From a virus, in IMG/VR virus record IMGVR_UViG_3300045988_065468, positions 1-47,284 of that record: DNA of 47,284 bases, one strand, 5' to 3'. This document shows, one piece after another, positions 1-47,284 of this stretch (position 1 is its first letter; every line of letters begins with the position of its first letter). Position numbers and translations under genes: made by a program. The notes beneath the pieces were generated by a model, which was given only the letters and a program-made list of their open reading frames with translations, was not told the DNA's origin and made no database searches.

Positions 1-99
1 ATGTGAGGAAACAAGAACATATTTTGCTTCTGGAAGGAGATTACAAGATGATACAGGAAAAGGGATATTATTTAGCTTAGGTGGTGAAACAAAAAAAAC
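1..99. repeat. Terminal direct repeat copy 1 (identical to 47186..47284); circular-assembly overlap
   Basis: Base-by-base comparison: atgtgaggaaacaagaac...gtggtgaaacaaaaaaaac occurs at both window ends (99 nt). Confidence 0.9.
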
Positions 100-2669: not shown

Positions 2670-3176
2670 ATGAGTAAATATTGCAGACCAATGGGGTTGT
2701 ATGTAACCTATATGGATTGCATGGAATGTGAGGACAAAGAATGTATAACAAAACGAGAAGAACAAACAAATGTAAATATGAGAGAACAATCACAGACAAA
2801 GATTGCAAAATCTGCACCATGTATGAAAAGTGCGAACTTACAGAAAGGAGATACGAACATGGCATTAACAAAACGTTATTTGAGCATAGAACCAGAACAA
2901 ACAGTGTTTGTAGTATTCGCAAGTAAACGAGAAGGATATAATGATAACATAGTGATACGGTGTAAGGTAAGGGAATGCATAGTAAGAAGAAACTCGACAT
3001 TGTATTGTTTGAGAAAAGAAAAGGTTGTAACAGGACAGAAGCGAATAGACACATTTATTGATAGCTTTATGTGTGAGAATGCAAACATTGATACGGGTTA
3101 TAGAGGATTACAGATAGATAAATACCCAGTATTTACAACAAAGGAGAAATGCATAGAATGGTTAAAACAAATATAA
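2670..3176 (+). CDS. Hypothetical Cys-rich protein (168 aa)
   Basis: ATG at 2670 follows aggagaa. It is in frame with track ORF 2625..3176. Confidence 0.55.
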   Translation: MSKYCRPMGLYVTYMDCMECEDKECITKREEQTNVNMREQSQTKIAKSAPCMKSANLQKGDTNMALTKRYLSIEPEQTVFVVFASKREGYNDNIVIRCKVRECIVRRNSTLYCLRKEKVVTGQKRIDTFIDSFMCENANIDTGYRGLQIDKYPVFTTKEKCIEWLKQI

Positions 3177-7359: not shown

Positions 7360-8493
7360 ATGAAAACAAGAAACATTATTTCAGTAAAGAAAGTTGATAA
7401 CAAAGCAGTATGTGAGATTAAAACAGATTTTGGTACAGTTACAGTAAAACGTACATTTAGAAAACATACAAAGGAAATCAGAGAATTACAGAAACAGAGT
7501 ATTTACTGTTTTGAAATACAGGGTATCTTGTATTGGTACAAGTTTAATGAACAGGGAATTGGAACACAGTACAAAGAACCAGAGAATTTCAGAGCAGAGG
7601 ACAGAACAACAGATGAGCTTAGAAGGACAGGAAGGAAAGACAAAGCAGTTGTTGATGGTAGCGTAGAATTAAGAATACCAGAGGTGAAGAAACCAGAACC
7701 AATCAAAAAGGAAGAACCAAAAGAAGATTGGAACAAAGAAGTAAAACACAGCAAGTTTGAAATGATTAAGGCTTGTATCGAGAATGACATTCCAGTATAT
7801 CTTGCAGGACCAGCAGGAAGTGGAAAGAACTACACATTGGAACAAATCAGTTGGGAACTTGGATTAGAGTTCTACTTTACAAACAGTGTTCAGCAGGAAT
7901 ACAAGTTAACAGGATTTATTGATGCAGGTGGAACATACCATGAAACAGAGTTTTACAAGGCATTTAAAAACGGTGGAATTTTCTTCCTTGACGAAATGGA
8001 TGCAAGTATTCCAGAAGTTCTGGTTTTACTCAATGCGGCAATCGCAAACAGATACTTTGAGTTTCCAAATGGTAAAATCAAAGCACACAAAAACTTCCGA
8101 GTTGTTGCGGCAGGAAACACAGTTGGAAGTGGTGCAGATGAAATGTATACAGGACGTCTGGTATTAGACCAAGCAACTCTGGATAGATTCGCAATCATTG
8201 ATTTTGATTACGACAGAAACATTGAAATGCACATTGCAAAAGGAAACAAAGAACTTGTTGATTTTGTGGAAGCAATCAGAACAGAAGCAAATACAAATGG
8301 AATCAGAGCAACATTCTCCTATCGTTGTATTGGAATGGTAACTAAACTTGAAAGAACAGGACTGAATTTGAAAGACATTCTTGAAATTGCAGTATTCAAA
8401 GGAATGGAAAAAGATACAATTAACAATTTCAGATTGTATTCACTGAACAATAAATATAAAACAGCATTGAATGAATTACAGAGGGTAGCCTAA
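7360..8493 (+). CDS. AAA+ ATPase, CobS/MoxR (AAA_5)-like
   Basis: Walker A LAGPAGSGKN and Walker B IFFLDEMD are present. FRVVAAGNTVGSGADEMYTGRLVLDQATLDRF matches the CobS-type sensor region pattern. Confidence 0.75.
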   Translation: MKTRNIISVKKVDNKAVCEIKTDFGTVTVKRTFRKHTKEIRELQKQSIYCFEIQGILYWYKFNEQGIGTQYKEPENFRAEDRTTDELRRTGRKDKAVVDGSVELRIPEVKKPEPIKKEEPKEDWNKEVKHSKFEMIKACIENDIPVYLAGPAGSGKNYTLEQISWELGLEFYFTNSVQQEYKLTGFIDAGGTYHETEFYKAFKNGGIFFLDEMDASIPEVLVLLNAAIANRYFEFPNGKIKAHKNFRVVAAGNTVGSGADEMYTGRLVLDQATLDRFAIIDFDYDRNIEMHIAKGNKELVDFVEAIRTEANTNGIRATFSYRCIGMVTKLERTGLNLKDILEIAVFKGMEKDTINNFRLYSLNNKYKTALNELQRVA

Positions 8494-8512
8494 AATGGCT
8501 ACCTGTTCTGTT
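8483..8512 (+). terminator. Hairpin at the 3' end of the ATPase gene (weak terminator candidate)
   Basis: Stem is ggtagcc/ggctacc (7 bp plus G-U) with the stop codon in the loop. The downstream U-tract is poor. Confidence 0.35.
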
Positions 8513-12526: not shown

Positions 12527-12930
12527 TGAGGAAGAGCAAGACAAAAAAGAAAAAAGGGAACAGCATATTTGTTGTGTTGTTACAAACGTTAGGTGAATTG
12601 TTGGCAACCTTTAAATATGGATTGATTGAGGAATTAGACAAGATTGCGGTATTGTTACAGATATTGATACCGATTGTGATTGCTAGGATGGATTTAAGCA
12701 CTCTTAAGATGTTGGTTGTGTCGTGCGTTCTGGTGGCGTGTGTAAAATACATTCGGGAAGTAGGGTACAAACTGAATCATGTAACAGAGAGAGGGCTTCC
12801 GATTCCATTACAGAGATTTACGGACAGAGACGAGAATGGGTTCATCAGCATAAAGGAAGAAGAAACACAAGAAGCAATGCTTTATTTATGTGATGTAGAG
12901 GACTATTTAAAAAGCAAAGGTTGGTTGTAG
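12526..12930 (+). CDS. Hypothetical membrane protein (134 aa)
   Basis: Basic N-terminus followed by hydrophobic segments (IFVVLLQTLGELL, LLQILIPIVIA, MLVVSCVLVACV). Confidence 0.5.
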   Translation: MRKSKTKKKKGNSIFVVLLQTLGELLATFKYGLIEELDKIAVLLQILIPIVIARMDLSTLKMLVVSCVLVACVKYIREVGYKLNHVTERGLPIPLQRFTDRDENGFISIKEEETQEAMLYLCDVEDYLKSKGWL

Positions 12931-12936
12931 TAAAAT

Positions 12937-13098
12937 ATGAAAGTACCATGTAAAAACTGTGCTAAACGGACAGTCGGATGTCACGCAGAGTGCAGAGAAT
13001 ATCGGGAGTTCCAGAGTGAAAATGAAAAGATAAAGAAGAACAGAGAGAATGATATCATCAATCGTTCTACCACATTTTGGGAAAAGTATTACAATTAA
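12937..13098 (+). CDS. Small Cys-rich protein (53 aa)
   Basis: Not in the track. Reads MKVPCKNCAKRTVGCHAECREYREFQSENEKIKKNRENDIINRSTTFWEKYYN, with TAA at 13096. Confidence 0.45.
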   Translation: MKVPCKNCAKRTVGCHAECREYREFQSENEKIKKNRENDIINRSTTFWEKYYN

Positions 13099-13101
13099 GT
13101 G

Positions 13102-13130
13102 TTGACAATCCAAACACAATGTGCTATAAT
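13102..13130 (+). promoter_or_regulatory. Perfect consensus extended -10 promoter, bracketed by a 14-bp inverted repeat
   Basis: TTGACA (13102-07), 17 nt, TGcTATAAT (13122-30). Inverted repeat caatccaaacacaa at 13106-13119 pairs with ttgtgtttggattg at 13148-13161. Confidence 0.7.
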
Positions 13131-13136
13131 TTGTTA

Positions 13137-13419
13137 TAGAAATGGAGTTGTGTTTGGATTGGCACAAGTAAGTGGTAGCCTATAAAGAAAATGCCTACCC
13201 ATAAAATAGAAATCGCAATGCCGCATTGTTGGTAGCCATTTATGAATCATGGTACAAGACACTTTAGATTTTATTTGTCCGTTTGGTGTAATCGTGAAAC
13301 ACTGTTGTAACTCGCGTAACTCGTAAACAATAAAACTGAATAATGTATCTATATGCGGCATTGCGGTTCACATAGATAAACAATAATAGACAAGGGCAAC
13401 CTTGTCTTATTGTGTATTT
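13137..13419 (+). ncRNA. Candidate ~280-nt noncoding transcript (or pac/cos-type packaging locus) upstream of terS
   Basis: There is no credible ORF. Bounded by the consensus promoter and a GNRA-loop terminator. A 13-nt long-range complement links 13214-13226 to 13353-13365. Other repeats: tggtagcc x2 (13173, 13230) and gtaactcg x2 (13307, 13316). Confidence 0.35.
13388..13419 (+). terminator. Intrinsic terminator candidate
   Basis: 8-bp stem agacaagg/ccttgtct with a GCAA tetraloop, then tattgtgtattt. Confidence 0.55.
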
Positions 13420-13469
13420 ATAGAACAAGACATAAAACATAAAACAAAGGCAGGAGGAAAACAAGAAAG

Positions 13470-13976
13470 ATGGGAAGAAGGAAAGGCAGAGAGGTAAAAG
13501 AAGCGAGTGAGAATCTGATACCAATGAATCAAAGAACACCAGAGGAACGGAAACGTATTTCCAGAATGGGTGTTGAAGCAAGGAAAAGGAAGAAAGAGCA
13601 GAACATGGCATTACAAAACTGTATGCGTCAATTGTTGGAGATGAAAACAAACAGCGATAAGAAAAAACAGGTATTACGTTCTTTTGGGTTTACAGATGAT
13701 GAACTTACCAATCGTTCATTATTAATGGTTGCATTGTTCCAAAAAGGATTAACTGGTGATGTTTCAGCAATAAAAGAAATCACAGACATGATGGACAAAT
13801 TAGATATGTTTGAAAACACAGGAAAGATAACAAGTAACGTAACAATCAATCTGGTTGCTAAAGGCGAAACATATCAACCAAATGAAGCAGATGAACAGGA
13901 AATCTGGGATGCAGAGAATGGAACGGACTTGATAGAAGATGATGACGAATGGGGGGATGACGTTTATGATGGATAG
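13470..13976 (+). CDS. terS: Terminase small subunit (putative)
   Basis: 168 aa. NLIPMNQRTPEERKRISRMGVEARKRKKE and ALFQKGLTGDVSAIKEITDMMD resemble Firmicutes-phage TerS patterns, recalled from memory. It has an acidic tail. No search was run. Confidence 0.5.
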   Translation: MGRRKGREVKEASENLIPMNQRTPEERKRISRMGVEARKRKKEQNMALQNCMRQLLEMKTNSDKKKQVLRSFGFTDDELTNRSLLMVALFQKGLTGDVSAIKEITDMMDKLDMFENTGKITSNVTINLVAKGETYQPNEADEQEIWDAENGTDLIEDDDEWGDDVYDG

Positions 13977-14184
13977 TGTCAGAGAAGCGTCAGGCGTTGA
14001 TATAGGGAGAGATTATGGCGTTATACTAATAAGTAATAACCTTAATGTAGAAAGTGGCTTAAAAGGGCAAATAAACGGCTTACAGAGGTTATCTGTTTTG
14101 GAATGGTTAAGGAAGCATACAGAACAAAATGAACTATTTTCCAAGAATATATTGACAAACATATCAGAACATGATATAATTTAA
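13966..14184 (+). CDS. Hypothetical protein (72 aa), doubtful
   Basis: ATG overlaps the terS end, in frame with track ORF 13939..14184. Its 3' end contains the next promoter. Confidence 0.25.
   Translation: MMDSVREASGVDIGRDYGVILISNNLNVESGLKGQINGLQRLSVLEWLRKHTEQNELFSKNILTNISEHDII
14152..14180 (+). promoter_or_regulatory. SigA-type consensus promoter (TTGACA-N17-TATAAT, TGn)
   Basis: atTTGACAaacatatcagaacatgaTATAATttaaa. Confidence 0.65.
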
Positions 14185-18752: not shown

Positions 18753-18782
18753 TTGACGAACAATAATTGAATATGGTATAAT
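18753..18782 (+). promoter_or_regulatory. SigA-type promoter (TTGACG-N18-TATAAT, TGn) upstream of terL
   Basis: ccTTGACGaacaataattgaatatggTATAATatg. Confidence 0.55.
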
Positions 18783-18789
18783 ATGATAA

Positions 18790-18835
18790 ACAAAACAGAT
18801 AGGTTCTGCATATACTTGCGACTTATCTGTTTTGT
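18790..18835 (+). promoter_or_regulatory. 15-bp stem-loop in the terL 5' leader
   Basis: acaaaacagataggt (18790-18804) pairs with acttatctgttttgt (18821-18835), with one G-U pair and a 16-nt loop. Confidence 0.6.
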
Positions 18836-18862
18836 GTATATTAAAACAAAGGAGCAAAGAGC

Positions 18863-19915
18863 ATGGATGTAAACATTGAGGTGTCTAACAGATTTGCTTC
18901 TTTTCTAACCGATTGGGACTATGAACAATATCTGTTGTTGGGTGGATATGGTAGTGGTAAAAGCTATCATGCAGCATTGAAGATTATATTAAAACTTCTG
19001 GAAGAAAAAAGAACAGCACTTGTAGTAAGACAAGTAAGAGAAACAATCAAAGAATCATGTTTCGCACTGTTTAAAGAAATCCTTGAAAAGATGGGGTTGT
19101 TATCAGACGAAGCAGTGAGATTTAACAATAGACCGAAGGGTGGAAAGGTTGTTGCAATTTCTAGCCCACTAGAAATCCGTTTTCCGAATGGTTCAAGAAT
19201 CATATTCCGAGGAATGGATAATACGGAGAAAATCAAGTCCATTCATGGTGTCAGCATTGTTTGGATGGAAGAGTGTAGCGAAATCCGTTATGAAGCATAT
19301 ACCGAGTTGCTAGGGCGTATCAGAGAGCCTAAAGTGACGTTGCATTTTATAATGACAACAAACCCAGTTGGTAAGGAAAACTGGGTATACAATACCTTTT
19401 TTGTGCATACGGATGAAAAGGGGAAAGAAAAAGTAATACAGAACCCAGAGGAATTTTACAGACGTAGAACATTGGTGAACAAAAAGAATGGCGTATATTA
19501 TCATCATAGTTTACCAAATGATAACCCATTTTTGCCAGCGTCATACATTAAGCGTTTGGATAGTTTGAAACAAACAGACAAACAGTTGTGGGTTGTTGCA
19601 AGATGGGGAAGGTTTGGTGCAAATGGAACAAGAGTATTACCAAACTTTATTATTGCAAAGCACAGTAAGGAGTTCAAGAACAAAGTGAACAGCATATCAG
19701 CACAATATCATTTCTTTGGACTTGACTTTGGTTTTGAAGAGAGTTACAATGCACTTATCAGTTGTTGTGTGGATGATGCAAACAAAGTGCTGTACATTTA
19801 TGATGAAGTGTACATGAATCAGATAACAGATGATAGATTCTCACAGAGACAAGATGTTCGTGCAGTAGCAGAACGTGCAGGAAGGTGTGAAAAACCAATC
19901 TGTGCAGACAGTGCT
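18863..19915 (+). CDS. terL: Terminase large subunit, exon 1
   Basis: Walker A is LLLGGYGSGKSYHAA, Walker B-like is VSIVWMEECSE, nuclease motif is FGLDFGFEESYNALI. Homology-like sequence ends at ...PICADSA. The track ORF then runs into unrelated residues (KLLVLNHVKYWEALRALNTVA*). Confidence 0.85.
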
Positions 19916-20754
19916 AAACTTTTGGTACTTAACCATGTTAAATACTGGGAAGCCCTTAGAGCCTTAAATACCGTAGCGTGATAATTTTAAGGATTGGGTA
20001 ATCAGTAGTAGTTTAAAGTAAACGGAGGATTTTGATGTGAAAGTGAAACAAATAAATAAAATAAAAGGGTTTGAACATATAAACGATGGATATTATGTTT
20101 CTTATGATGGAAGAGTATTTTCTCTCAGAACAAACGGAGGAAAGGTTGTAGATGTATCTCATAGAAAAGAGTTAAAGCAGTATGAGAAAACAGGTGGTTA
20201 TTTGAATGTTGCTCTTACAACAAAACATAACAAAGTAAATTATGTTAGAGTAAACAGATTAGTCGCAAAGGCTTTTGTAAAAGGAGAAACATCAAAAAGA
20301 AAATATGTTAATCATGAAGACGAAAATAGAAAAAATAATAATGCAGATAATTTGTGTTGGGTAACTCCAAAGGAAAATAATGATTGGAGTTTATCAAAGA
20401 AAGTTTATATGTATGATAGCAACGGGTATTTTATAAAAAGTTATATCTCTACAAGAGAAGCATCTTATGATGGGTTTAATAAATCACATGTTGCAAATGT
20501 ATGTAGAGGAATTGAAAGACAACATAAAGGATATTTGTTCTCATATCAAAAACTAACGAAAGAACAAGCTATTCAACGACTATCGAAAACACATTATGTT
20601 AGATATCCAAAATGTAATGGAAGTGAGTAGAGTACACACAAGCGTGTGGAAAAGCATGGAGCAGAAATGCTAAGATATAGTCTAAACTTATATGAAAGTA
20701 TAAGCAGTTCATAAGAGAACGTGTATAGAGTAGCGATCTATGCAGAATCTATTG
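19916..20754 (+). mobile_element. Group I self-splicing intron (839 nt) carrying an HNH homing endonuclease ORF
   Basis: The exon ends in U. P1 pairs agtgcU (19910-15) with Ggtact (19924-29), placing a U-G wobble at the splice site. The last intron nt is G (20754). gctaagatatagtct (20678-20692) contains the AAGAUAUAGUC J8/7-P7 core string. Joining the exons restores ADSA-EPKTIQ in frame. Confidence 0.8.
20037..20630 (+). CDS. Intron-encoded HNH homing endonuclease (HNH_3 plus IENR/NUMOD-like)
   Basis: GTG follows ggagg. YYVSYDGRVFS, RVNRLVAKAF..VNHEDENRKNNNADNLCW, YDGFNKSHVANVCRG..HKGYLFSY. Same architecture as the N-terminal half of ORF 3945..5099. Confidence 0.8.
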   Translation: MKVKQINKIKGFEHINDGYYVSYDGRVFSLRTNGGKVVDVSHRKELKQYEKTGGYLNVALTTKHNKVNYVRVNRLVAKAFVKGETSKRKYVNHEDENRKNNNADNLCWVTPKENNDWSLSKKVYMYDSNGYFIKSYISTREASYDGFNKSHVANVCRGIERQHKGYLFSYQKLTKEQAIQRLSKTHYVRYPKCNGSE

Positions 20755-47079: not shown

Positions 47080-47265
47080 ATGAATTTATTGGAACATTAT
47101 GTAACAAACATCACAAGGGAACATGAAACAGATTATCAAGGGGTAAAGATGTATGAGTTGATATGTGACATTAACTGCTATGGGAATGTGAGGAAACAAG
47201 AACATATTTTGCTTCTGGAAGGAGATTACAAGATGATACAGGAAAAGGGATATTATTTAGCTTAG
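47080..47265 (+). CDS. Hypothetical protein (61 aa)
   Basis: Track ORF. Its 3' end lies in the terminal repeat and is duplicated at 1..80. Confidence 0.5.
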   Translation: MNLLEHYVTNITREHETDYQGVKMYELICDINCYGNVRKQEHILLLEGDYKMIQEKGYYLA

Positions 47266-47284
47266 GTGGTGAAACAAAAAAAAC
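47186..47284. repeat. Terminal direct repeat copy 2 (identical to 1..99)
   Basis: Base-by-base identity with the window start. Confidence 0.9.

What the first reader, a model, noticed from the sequence alone, without database searches (positions are those of the whole stretch)
13099..13469. 370-bp ORF-free, repeat-rich locus between a perfect consensus promoter and terS: candidate ncRNA and/or packaging site
This is the longest noncoding stretch without an RNA gene. It opens with the best promoter in the genome (TTGACA-N17-TGcTATAAT). A perfect 14-bp inverted repeat brackets that promoter (13106-13119 and 13148-13161), with one arm in the spacer and the other downstream of the start, which is an operator-like layout.

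The predicted transcript of about 280 nt carries several elements:
- A 13-nt perfect long-range complement (cgcaatgccgcat at 13214-26 with atgcggcattgcg at 13353-65). The first copy is itself a 13-bp palindrome, caatgc-c-gcattg.
- Direct repeats tggtagcc x2.
- A tandem gtaactcg(c/t) x2.
- An 8-bp GNRA-loop hairpin followed by a U-rich tract, just before the terS RBS.

The locus could be a regulated structured RNA (attenuator or sRNA) controlling packaging-gene expression. It could also be a DNA-level pac/cos region with terminase-binding repeats, or both. I could not match it to any RNA family I know.
Basis: seen in the sequence. Interest (0 to 1): 0.65.

Follow-up and report, generated by a model that had tools for sequence, protein, structure and literature searches.

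The report
Conserved structured leader RNA before terS-like gene
The 370-bp gap encodes a structured RNA, absent from Rfam 15 and conserved across a lineage of human-gut Clostridia phages, that starts at a strong promoter, ends at a terminator hairpin just before a probable small-terminase gene, and probably controls read-through into that gene.

Summary

- **Promoter.** It is perfect (13102-13130), but it is one of 11 perfect sigma-70 promoters in this 47-kb circular phage genome.
- **Promoter-bracketing repeat.** The 14-bp inverted repeat is not conserved and not compensated in relatives. Its downstream arm is simply one side of an RNA hairpin.
- **Conserved RNA.** About 100 related phage loci from IMG/VR, gut metagenomes and Clostridium phages CS266P1-4 share a + strand RNA.
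  - It begins with a 5' module at about +8 to +63 of the predicted transcript: GGAG, hairpin P1 with an almost invariant GGAU loop, AAGUG, and a 4-bp hairpin P2 with a GCC loop start.
  - This module has strong covariation.
- A long-range helix P3 follows. It keeps its position while its sequence is completely replaced between clades.
  - A GC-rich terminator-like hairpin sits 35-120 nt before the gene.
- **No Rfam family matches.**
- **Downstream gene.** It belongs to phrog_2412. Distant members of that family sit directly upstream of TerL, so "terS" is plausible but unproven.
- **Best reading.** This is a cis-acting attenuation/antitermination leader with an unknown factor.
- **No support** was found for a pac/cos site or an operator.

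The parts
12937..13098 (+). Small Cys-rich ORF (53 aa; invariant P-C-x2-C-x2-R-x3-C-H-x2-C-x2-Y followed by a long helix). It is the conserved upstream neighbour of the promoter and RNA. Function unknown.
   Evidence: Present immediately upstream in most loci whose upstream DNA is held; several with enough upstream DNA gave no match. Alignment A6. No Pfam, NCBIfam or PHROG hit. AF2 pLDDT 86.6, with no PDB match and only uncharacterised viral matches. Distant homologues occur without the RNA.
13102..13130 (+). Sigma-70-type promoter: TTGACA, N17, TGcTATAAT. The start is predicted, not mapped, at about 13137.
   Evidence: A TTGAC(A/G) -35 and a -10-like hexamer are kept in every clade, 5-16 nt upstream of the module.
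13144..13147 (+). GGAG (A-N-GGA-G) at the extreme 5' end of the predicted RNA. Its first G may pair with C13199 (tentative helix P0).
   Evidence: At least 75% conserved columns. Word counts. The one unambiguous departure (L095: AGAG with a ..GCU tail) is compensatory; L119 also carries a GCU tail but its 5' alignment is ambiguous (G.U as aligned).
13148..13167 (+). Hairpin P1: stem 13148-54 with 13161-67, loop TGGATT 13155-60. GGAU is almost invariant across the family.
   Evidence: Six of 7 pairs change on both sides; pair types include UA, AU, GC and CG. More than 12 different stem sequences.
13168..13199 (+). Linker with conserved AAGUG (13170-74). Hairpin P2: GGTA 13174-77 with TGCC 13192-95. 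Loop begins with invariant GCC (13178-80) and ends AAA(A). Tail is TACC (13196-99).
   Evidence: P2 in this register is 98.9% paired and all 4 pairs covary. The alternative GGTAG/CTACC register is only 77% paired.
13211..13368 (+). Domain closed by long-range helix P3 (13211-26 with 13353-68; 16 bp, one U.G). The inside holds P4 (13232-39 with 13249-55, containing the second GGTAGCC), P5 (13284-89 with 13299-13304) and a window-only 9-bp duplication (13307-23).
   Evidence: P3 begins 23-34 nt after AGCC in 15 of the 18 clade representatives that have one, each with an unrelated sequence. P5 has three compensatory haplotypes.
13377..13421 (+). Intrinsic-terminator-like hairpin: AGACAAGG-GCAA-CCTTGTCT 13388-13407, A/U-rich lower stem 13377-86 with 13408-18, and U-rich tail.
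   Evidence: A GC-rich hairpin at the same relative place in nearly every clade; in the P3-less L027 clade the register-B P2 hairpin plus U tract is the only terminator-like element. It passes a strict terminator test in 58 of 89 distinct leaders.
13452..13457 (+). Ribosome-binding site AGGAGG, 12 nt before the ATG.
13470..13976 (+). Downstream gene (168 aa, basic N-terminus, acidic W..Y C-terminus). Member of phrog_2412 and a candidate small terminase subunit.
   Evidence: hhalign to the TerL-adjacent L031 protein gives 95% probability, E 1.9e-8. L030 and L031 members overlap TerL. The AF2 model is uninformative.

Best explanation
The region is the 5' leader of the terS-like gene and is made as a structured + strand RNA.

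Host RNA polymerase starts at the constitutive promoter, at about 13137. The first ~60 nt fold into a conserved module: GGAG, P1 with a GGAU loop, AAGUG, and P2 with a GCC loop start. A clade-specific domain closed by the long helix P3 follows. Transcription then meets an intrinsic terminator at 13388-13421, about 50 nt before the ribosome-binding site.

I infer that most transcripts stop there, giving an RNA of about 280 nt. I also infer that the conserved 5' module decides how many polymerases read through into the gene. It could do this by recruiting a protein, by acting on the polymerase as put, nut, conAn2 and canT RNAs do, or by switching fold.

Shown: the RNA structure, its strand, its conservation, and its fixed position between promoter and gene. 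Inferred: termination, read-through control, and the (unknown) factor.
For: 1. The covariance model of the module finds one significant hit in the window (13137-13211, 89.7 bits). It also finds a + strand hit 240-470 nt upstream of nearly every homologue of the downstream gene, across 74 metagenome loci and the IMG/VR loci.
2. Covariation over 47 distinct sequences: 89.9% of cells are paired against 68.5% in shuffles. Ten of 11 pairs change on both sides. Controls with the partner slid by 1-3 columns fall to 22-41% paired.
3. G.U cells number 54 and A.C cells 13. Together with promoter and terminator orientation, this favours + strand RNA over the opposite strand or duplex DNA.
4. P3 keeps its position while its sequence is fully replaced in about 15 clades. 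Between the window and CS266P3 it changes by several compensatory substitutions.
5. A GC-rich hairpin with a U-rich tail precedes the gene in nearly every clade.
6. In the clades without P3 (L025, L027) the module's 3' tail runs straight into UUUUUAU or UUUUAUUUU. In L027 the predicted lowest-energy fold is a terminator hairpin that uses the same bases as conserved P2, so the two folds exclude each other.
7. The module starts within a few nt of the predicted 5' end in every clade.
8. The other strong promoters of this phage have short leaders (those listed); apart from a single hairpin in the TerL leader, this is the only one seen with a long structured leader and a terminator-like hairpin.
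9. Cis-acting RNA antiterminators of mobile elements in Gram-positive bacteria have a comparable layout. An example is conAn2, a roughly 380-nt region after a small protein gene with 20-bp inverted repeats flanking 238 bp (PMC8191782). Another is canT (PMC11658703).
Against: - There is no transcript, termination or read-through data.
- The U tract in the window is interrupted (UAUUGUGUAUUUAU). The hairpin also scores as a terminator on the minus strand.
- I found no conserved alternative pairing between the module and the distant terminator in the clades that have P3.
- A further perfect promoter at 14152 and others downstream mean that processive antitermination is not needed for most downstream genes.
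- No factor was identified. The upstream Cys-rich protein has distant homologues in phages that lack the RNA.
- The covariance-model alignment is fitted to the structure, which inflates the paired percentage somewhat.
Confidence: 0.5

Rival explanations
1. It is a stand-alone abundant small RNA of about 280 nt here and 80-400 nt in relatives. The RNA is made from the strong promoter and ended by the terminator, and it acts in trans by base pairing or by sequestering a host protein. Expression of the downstream gene would be only a by-product of leaky read-through.
For: - A perfect promoter plus a terminator define a discrete gene-like unit.
- The conserved 5' module sits at the RNA's 5' end.
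- The A-N-GGA word and the GGAU hairpin loop 12-13 nt later resemble CsrA/RsmA binding sites. That resemblance rests on my own knowledge and was not tested.
Against: - The RNA is always directly upstream of, and co-oriented with, the phrog_2412 gene, and no promoter lies between terminator and gene.
- Only two GGA motifs occur in the whole RNA. Known protein sponges carry many.
- The body of the RNA (the P3 domain) is not conserved between clades, so there is no conserved seed for base pairing.
Confidence: 0.2
2. It is an mRNA stability and processing leader. The 5' module (SD-like GGAG plus hairpins) protects the transcript's 5' end from RNase J/Y. The long perfect helix P3 is an RNase III site, as in the T7, SP82 and lambda N leaders. 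The hairpin before the gene is a 3' or 5' stabiliser rather than a regulated terminator.
For: - The module lies at the extreme 5' end with a purine-rich GGAG.
- P3 is a 12-24-bp near-perfect duplex whose sequence is free to vary, which is what RNase III needs.
- The parallels to the lambda N leader and to STAB-SD elements come from my own knowledge.
Against: - The near-invariant GGAU loop, AAGUG, and the GCC and AAAU of P2 point to specific recognition, not generic protection.
- Two clades dispense with P3 altogether.
- This does not explain the U tract placed right after the module in those clades.
Confidence: 0.15
3. It is a metabolite- or ion-sensing riboswitch. The roughly 60-nt module (P0/P1/P2 junction with invariant loop bases) is an aptamer, and its folding competes with terminator formation.
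For: - Compact junction-like fold with invariant unpaired bases and covarying stems.
- In the L027 clade the conserved P2 and a terminator fold are mutually exclusive.
Against: - No Rfam riboswitch class matches.
- In most clades 100-300 nt of unrelated structure separate the module from the terminator, which is unusual for riboswitch expression platforms.
- P0 rests on a single unambiguous compensatory sequence (L095).
- No ligand is suggested by the gene context.
Confidence: 0.07
4. It is a DNA-level element: a pac/cos site with terminase-binding repeats, or an operator formed by the promoter-bracketing inverted repeat.
For: - It lies next to a terS-like gene, and pac sites often lie in or near terS (own knowledge).
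- Repeats are present.
Against: - The inverted repeat is not conserved and not compensated.
- The direct repeats are clade-specific or unique to the window.
- Stems covary and accept G.U, which points to RNA.
- The window is a circularly closed assembly with a 99-nt overlap, and related contigs are permuted, so nothing places termini here.
Confidence: 0.05

Closest known systems
Lambda PR'-qut-6S RNA-tR' late switch with Q antiterminator
   Same: A small regulator-sized gene is followed by a strong constitutive promoter, a leader of about 200-300 nt, an intrinsic terminator, and then late or packaging genes. The short terminated RNA is the default product.
   Different: Q is loaded through a DNA site and a sigma-dependent pause. 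Here the conserved elements are RNA hairpins that covary. The upstream 53-aa Cys-rich protein has no Pfam match to any family, including Q families, and its homologues occur without the RNA.
HK022 put RNA (PMC9378689) and lambda N/nut
   Same: Two adjacent hairpins are transcribed immediately downstream of a promoter. The element acts, or is proposed here to act, in cis on the transcribing polymerase, independently of distance to the terminator. The downstream protein has an arginine/lysine-rich N-terminus, as N does.
   Different: There is no boxA-like sequence and no sequence relation. Here the terminator precedes the first gene. No evidence exists of action on RNA polymerase.
conAn (pLS20) and canT (Tn916) RNA antiterminators of Gram-positive conjugative elements (PMC8191782, PMC11658703)
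   Same: Both are large, poorly conserved, cis-acting leader RNAs in Firmicutes mobile elements. conAn2 follows a small protein gene and has 20-bp inverted repeats flanking a 238-bp core plus essential stem-loops. Terminators lie downstream.
   Different: ConAn1 is Pfam PF17362, and neither flanking protein here matches it. Here a promoter lies between the small gene and the RNA. This is a phage, not a conjugative element. Function is untested.
Terminator/antiterminator attenuators and riboswitches
   Same: A conserved folded 5' domain is followed by an intrinsic terminator before the regulated gene. In the minimal L027 clade the two folds share bases.
   Different: No known class matches. In most clades a variable 100-300-nt domain separates the module from the terminator.

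Membership tests
Any Rfam 15 RNA family (riboswitches, EAR, phage ncRNAs, sRNAs) | Covariance-model score at or above the family's gathering threshold | tested here: not met
   Window at gathering threshold: only two tRNAs. Region 12900-13600 at E up to 10: only chance-level hits of 12-24 bits against thresholds of 40-98. Ten diverse relatives at E up to 1: only tRNAs.
Lambda N/nut antitermination | boxA sequence followed by a boxB hairpin in the nascent RNA | tested here: not met
   No YGCTCTT(T)A, GCTCTT or Bacillus-type boxA in 13137-13420. The hairpins present have different conserved loops.
Lambda N/nut antitermination | Small arginine-rich protein that binds the hairpin | not testable with these tools
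   The downstream protein has a conserved basic N-terminal helix. Binding cannot be assessed here.
HK022 put-type RNA antiterminator | Two stem-loops just downstream of the promoter that make polymerase termination-resistant without phage proteins | tested here: inconclusive
   Two covarying hairpins at about +12 to +59 are present. The effect on polymerase is untestable here, and no put model was available for a sequence comparison.
conAn bipartite antitermination (pLS20) | ConAn1 processivity protein, Pfam PF17362 (pXO2-34) | tested here: not met
   No Pfam hit for the 53-aa or the 168-aa protein, or for 20 homologues of the former. The family definition comes from PMC8191782.
conAn bipartite antitermination (pLS20) | Large leader RNA after a small gene, with essential GC-rich region and stem-loop, giving read-through of downstream terminators | tested here: inconclusive
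   The layout is similar: small gene, roughly 330-nt structured RNA, long inverted repeat flanking a core. Activity was not tested.
Lambda Q-type late antitermination | Q-family protein encoded upstream of the late promoter | tested here: not met
   The upstream ORF has no Pfam, PHROG or NCBIfam match and no PDB fold match.
Small terminase subunit (for the downstream gene) | Membership of an annotated terS family, or a solved terS fold | tested here: not met
   The only hit is phrog_2412, 'unknown function'. No Pfam, NCBIfam or PDB-sequence hit. The AF2 model has pLDDT 51 and is unusable.
Small terminase subunit (for the downstream gene) | Gene immediately upstream of, and translationally coupled to, TerL | tested here: inconclusive
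   Not met in the window, where TerL is at 18863, 4.9 kb away. Met for distant phrog_2412 members in L030 and L031, which overlap a 487-aa TerL.
pac/cos packaging site | Genome termini or the pac cleavage series map to the site | not testable with these tools
   Only circularly closed or permuted assemblies are available. The repeats are not conserved.
Operator (repressor-bound inverted repeat at the promoter) | Both half-sites conserved, or changing together, in relatives | tested here: not met
   Matches are 14/14 only in the window, 10-12/14 in close clades and 3-7/14 elsewhere. Changes in L002 and L015 are uncompensated.

The most novel reading that the evidence does not exclude
The roughly 60-nt 5' module (GGAG, P1 with a GGAU loop, AAGUG, P2 with a GCC loop) is a previously undescribed class of nascent-RNA control element. 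It would be either a put/nut/conAn2-like antiterminator or a ligand- or protein-sensing aptamer. It would gate expression of the small-terminase-like gene, and so the onset of DNA packaging, in a widespread lineage of 45-52-kb phages of human-gut Clostridia.
Probability: 0.35. Interest if true: 0.75.

Novelty: new variant of a known kind. Interest (0 to 1): 0.6.

Why it matters
RNA-based control of transcription read-through is textbook biology in lambdoid phages. [quoted passage not shown] Almost nothing is known for phages of gut Firmicutes, where most genes are unannotated.

This locus offers a compact RNA motif with clear covariation, many natural variants, and cultured representatives with a known host (CS266P1-4 on Clostridium_AP DA266). 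That makes it directly testable.

If the motif gates a small-terminase gene, it would show how these phages time packaging while otherwise relying on constitutive host-type promoters. It would also add a new family to the RNA catalogues. If it turns out to be only a stabilising leader, it is still a useful annotation landmark for this phage lineage.

Tried and rejected
- **Rfam** at gathering and permissive thresholds, on the window and on 10 relatives: nothing.
- **Downstream protein.** The AF2 model had pLDDT 51, so no fold search was attempted. A profile search of PDB sequences gave nothing.
- **Cys-rich protein.** The AF2 model was confident, but there was no PDB match and only uncharacterised viral matches. 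The homologue search returned no names.
- **GTDB genome scan** for the downstream protein. One hit, itself a phage-sized contig binned as a MAG, so there is no prophage or host information.
- **Leader peptide.** I considered a small ORF starting after GGAG. The reading frame relative to the conserved AAGUGGUAGCC differs between clades and some clades have no start codon, so I rejected it (sequences).
- **P2 register.** I first modelled P2 as GGTAG/CTACC. Covariation favours the 4-bp GGTA/TGCC register instead.
- **Second copy.** I searched the window for a second copy of the module, for example after the perfect promoter at 14152, and found none.
- **Antiterminator pairing.** By eye (no call) I compared the module's 3' tail with the terminator's 5' arm. 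L025 has 8 bp and L099 has 6 bp, but the window and L019 have none, so this is not a general feature.
- **Pyrimidine motif.** A pyrimidine-rich CCUC-like motif lies inside P3 in 13 of 17 clades. I could not assign it a consistent partner.
- **Literature searches** for the CS266P phages and for terS leader RNAs found nothing specific.

Full report
**What is in the window.**
- TTGACA-N17-TGcTATAAT at 13102-13130.
- A perfect 14-bp inverted repeat, 13106-19 with 13148-61.
- A long-range complement that extends to 16 bp with one U.G (13211-26 with 13353-68).
- Two TGGTAGCC words and a GTAACTCG tandem.
- An 8-bp GCAA-loop hairpin (13388-13407) followed by a U-rich tail.
- AGGAGG 12 nt before the ATG at 13470.

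The predicted transcript folds better than shuffles (z = -3.3). The opposite strand does equally well (z = -3.33), so the single sequence is not decisive. The promoter is perfect but not special. The genome has 11 perfect 12/12 sites, all on the + strand. The window is a closed circular assembly, with nt 1-99 equal to 47186-47284.

**Context.**
- Upstream lies a replication and recombination module: Holliday-junction resolvase, endonuclease VII-like, RNase H. Three small ORFs follow. The last (12937-13098) is a 53-aa Cys-rich protein.
- Downstream lies a 168-aa protein whose only family match is phrog_2412, 'unknown function'.
- After that come a MazG-like protein, a ParB-like nuclease, an ABC-ATPase-like protein, a GNAT, and two tRNAs.
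- TerL appears only at 18863, followed by an HNH endonuclease, an endolysin and the portal gene.
- 'terS' is therefore not established. However, distant phrog_2412 members in two other phages sit immediately upstream of, and overlap, a 487-aa TerL. They align to the N-terminal 100 residues with hhalign probability 95%. A small-terminase role is plausible.

**Relatives.**
- The region is 77% identical to Clostridium phages CS266P1-4, whose host is Clostridium_AP sp000509125 DA266.
- Protein-anchored scans gave 30 IMG/VR loci and 74 gut-metagenome loci. Protein identity ranges from 99% down to 38%.
- The GTDB genome scan gave only one phage-sized MAG contig.
- Upstream of the gene, most of these loci have the same layout: Cys-rich ORF, TTGACA promoter, a noncoding stretch of 120-560 nt, then the gene.

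**The conserved 5' module.**
- A covariance model built from 13 leaders finds one significant hit in the window (13137-13211). It also finds a + strand hit upstream of almost every homologue.
- P1 (13148-54 with 13161-67) appears with more than a dozen unrelated stem sequences. Examples are UUGUG/CACAA, UUAUAA/UUAUAA, CGGUG/CACCG, CUACCUC/GAGGUAG, AUAUUC/GAAUAU and UGGC/GCCA. Its loop always carries GGAU.
- P2 is a 4-bp helix (13174-77 with 13192-95) in which all four pairs covary (GC/AU; AU/GC/UA; CG/UG/UA; AU/GC). It is paired in 98.9% of cells.
- The GGTAG/CTACC register I first assumed is paired in only 77% of cells.
- Over both helices, 89.9% of cells pair against 68.5% in shuffles, and against 22-41% when the partners are slid.
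- Unpaired GGAG, GGAU, AAGUG, AGCC and AAAU are at least 75-95% conserved.
- A 2-bp closing helix between GGAG and the tail CC is hinted at by one unambiguous compensatory sequence (L095); L119 is ambiguous.
- G.U cells outnumber A.C cells 54 to 13. This favours + strand RNA.
- The module begins 5-16 nt after the -10, at the very 5' end of the predicted RNA.

**The rest of the leader.**
Between the window and CS266P3 it changes at several positions on both strands and stays complementary: AUCGCAAUGCCGCAU/AUGCGGCAUUGCG(G) against AUCACGUUGCCGCU/AGCGGCAACGUGAU.
- In about 15 further clades, a 12-24-bp helix of unrelated sequence starts 23-34 nt after the module. It encloses 46-190 nt of unrelated sequence.
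- Inside the window clade, hairpin P5 has three compensatory haplotypes: GGUGU/ACACU, GAUGU/ACAUC and GACGU/ACGUC. P4 contains the second GGTAGCC word.
- Two clades (L025, L027) lack P3.
- Nearly every clade has a GC-rich hairpin with a more or less U-rich tail, 35-120 nt before the gene; in the L027 clade the register-B P2 hairpin fills that role.

**What is not conserved.**
- The promoter-bracketing repeat matches 14/14 only here, 10-12/14 in the nearest clades and 3-7/14 elsewhere. Changes are not compensated. Its downstream arm is conserved because it forms P1.
- The GTAACTCG tandem is a duplication unique to this window.
- Nothing supports an operator or terminase-binding repeats.

**Mechanism.**
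- The shown facts are a constitutive promoter, a conserved folded RNA at the 5' end, a terminator-like hairpin and then the gene. They fit a leader that controls read-through.
- In the P3-less clades the module's tail runs directly into a U tract. In L027 the lowest-energy fold is a terminator that uses the P2 bases in another register, so the conserved fold and the terminator exclude each other.
- In the other clades the terminator lies 100-300 nt away. I found no conserved alternative pairing there. That points to action through a bound factor or on the polymerase itself.
- Precedents are nut, put, conAn2 and canT (PMC9378689, PMC8191782, PMC11658703).
- The factor is unknown. The Cys-rich neighbour is a Zn-knuckle plus helix with no annotated relatives, and its distant homologues occur without the RNA.
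- Rival readings cannot be excluded without experiments. They are a free-standing small RNA, a stabilising or RNase III-processed leader, and a riboswitch.

**Novelty.**
- No Rfam 15 family matches the window or ten diverse relatives.
- No flanking protein belongs to the ConAn1 or Q families.
- The kind of element is known. This motif and its association with a terS-like gene in gut Clostridia phages appear to be undescribed, within the limits of the libraries searched.

Noticed in passing
window 1-99 and 47186-47284: The first 99 nt are identical to the last 99 nt. The window is a circularly closed assembly of a phage genome of about 47.2 kb and carries no information on physical ends.
   Followed up: yes
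window, whole (e.g. 1138, 9517, 10367, 13102, 14152, 24732, 26165, 34613, 40793, 43096, 44289): There are eleven perfect 12/12 sigma-70 promoters, all on the + strand. Of 21 sites scoring at least 11/12, 20 are on the + strand. The phage seems to rely on host sigma-A promoters throughout.
   Followed up: partly
window 18863-20630: The TerL ORF is only 372 aa and is followed at once by an HNH (I-HmuI-like) endonuclease. CS266P3 annotates TerL plus two such endonucleases. TerL may be split by a homing-endonuclease or intron insertion.
   Followed up: no
window 18753-18862: TerL has its own near-consensus promoter and a 46-nt leader hairpin at 18790-18835 (z = -4.3). The hairpin tail TTGTGTATAT resembles the tail of the terminator at 13410. 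This may be a second attenuator on a packaging gene.
   Followed up: partly
window 8483-8504: The terminator-like hairpin GGGTAGCC-taaaat-GGCTACCT shares the GGTAGCC word with the module's P2 and with P4.
   Followed up: no
window 12937-13098; L125-L128 3001-3207: The Cys-rich small protein family (PCxxCxxRxxxCHxxCxxY plus a long helix, AF2 pLDDT 87) is widespread in gut-virome phages and is unannotated. Distant members sit after a RusA-like gene in ERF/SSB replication modules.
   Followed up: partly
P3 interiors, e.g. window 13274-13282; L018, L067, L099, L119 leaders: A pyrimidine-rich CCUC/UCC (anti-SD-like) motif lies inside the P3 domain in 13 of 17 clade representatives. It could pair with the module's GGAG or GGAU, or with the gene's RBS. 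No consistent partner was found.
   Followed up: partly
L008, L009 (leaders about 2675-3000): These leaders are mosaics, with a CS266P-type 5' start joined to a window-type P3 domain. This indicates recombination inside the leader.
   Followed up: no
L067 and L068 (contig NFZD01003831.1, 99.7 kb): One contig carries the locus twice, about 49 kb apart. It is probably a two-unit concatemer assembly of a roughly 49-kb phage.
   Followed up: no
window 13144-13160: A-N-GGA at the 5' end, and GGAU in a hairpin loop 12-13 nt later, resemble a pair of CsrA/RsmA binding sites. This is my own knowledge and was not tested. Only these two GGA motifs occur in the RNA.
   Followed up: no
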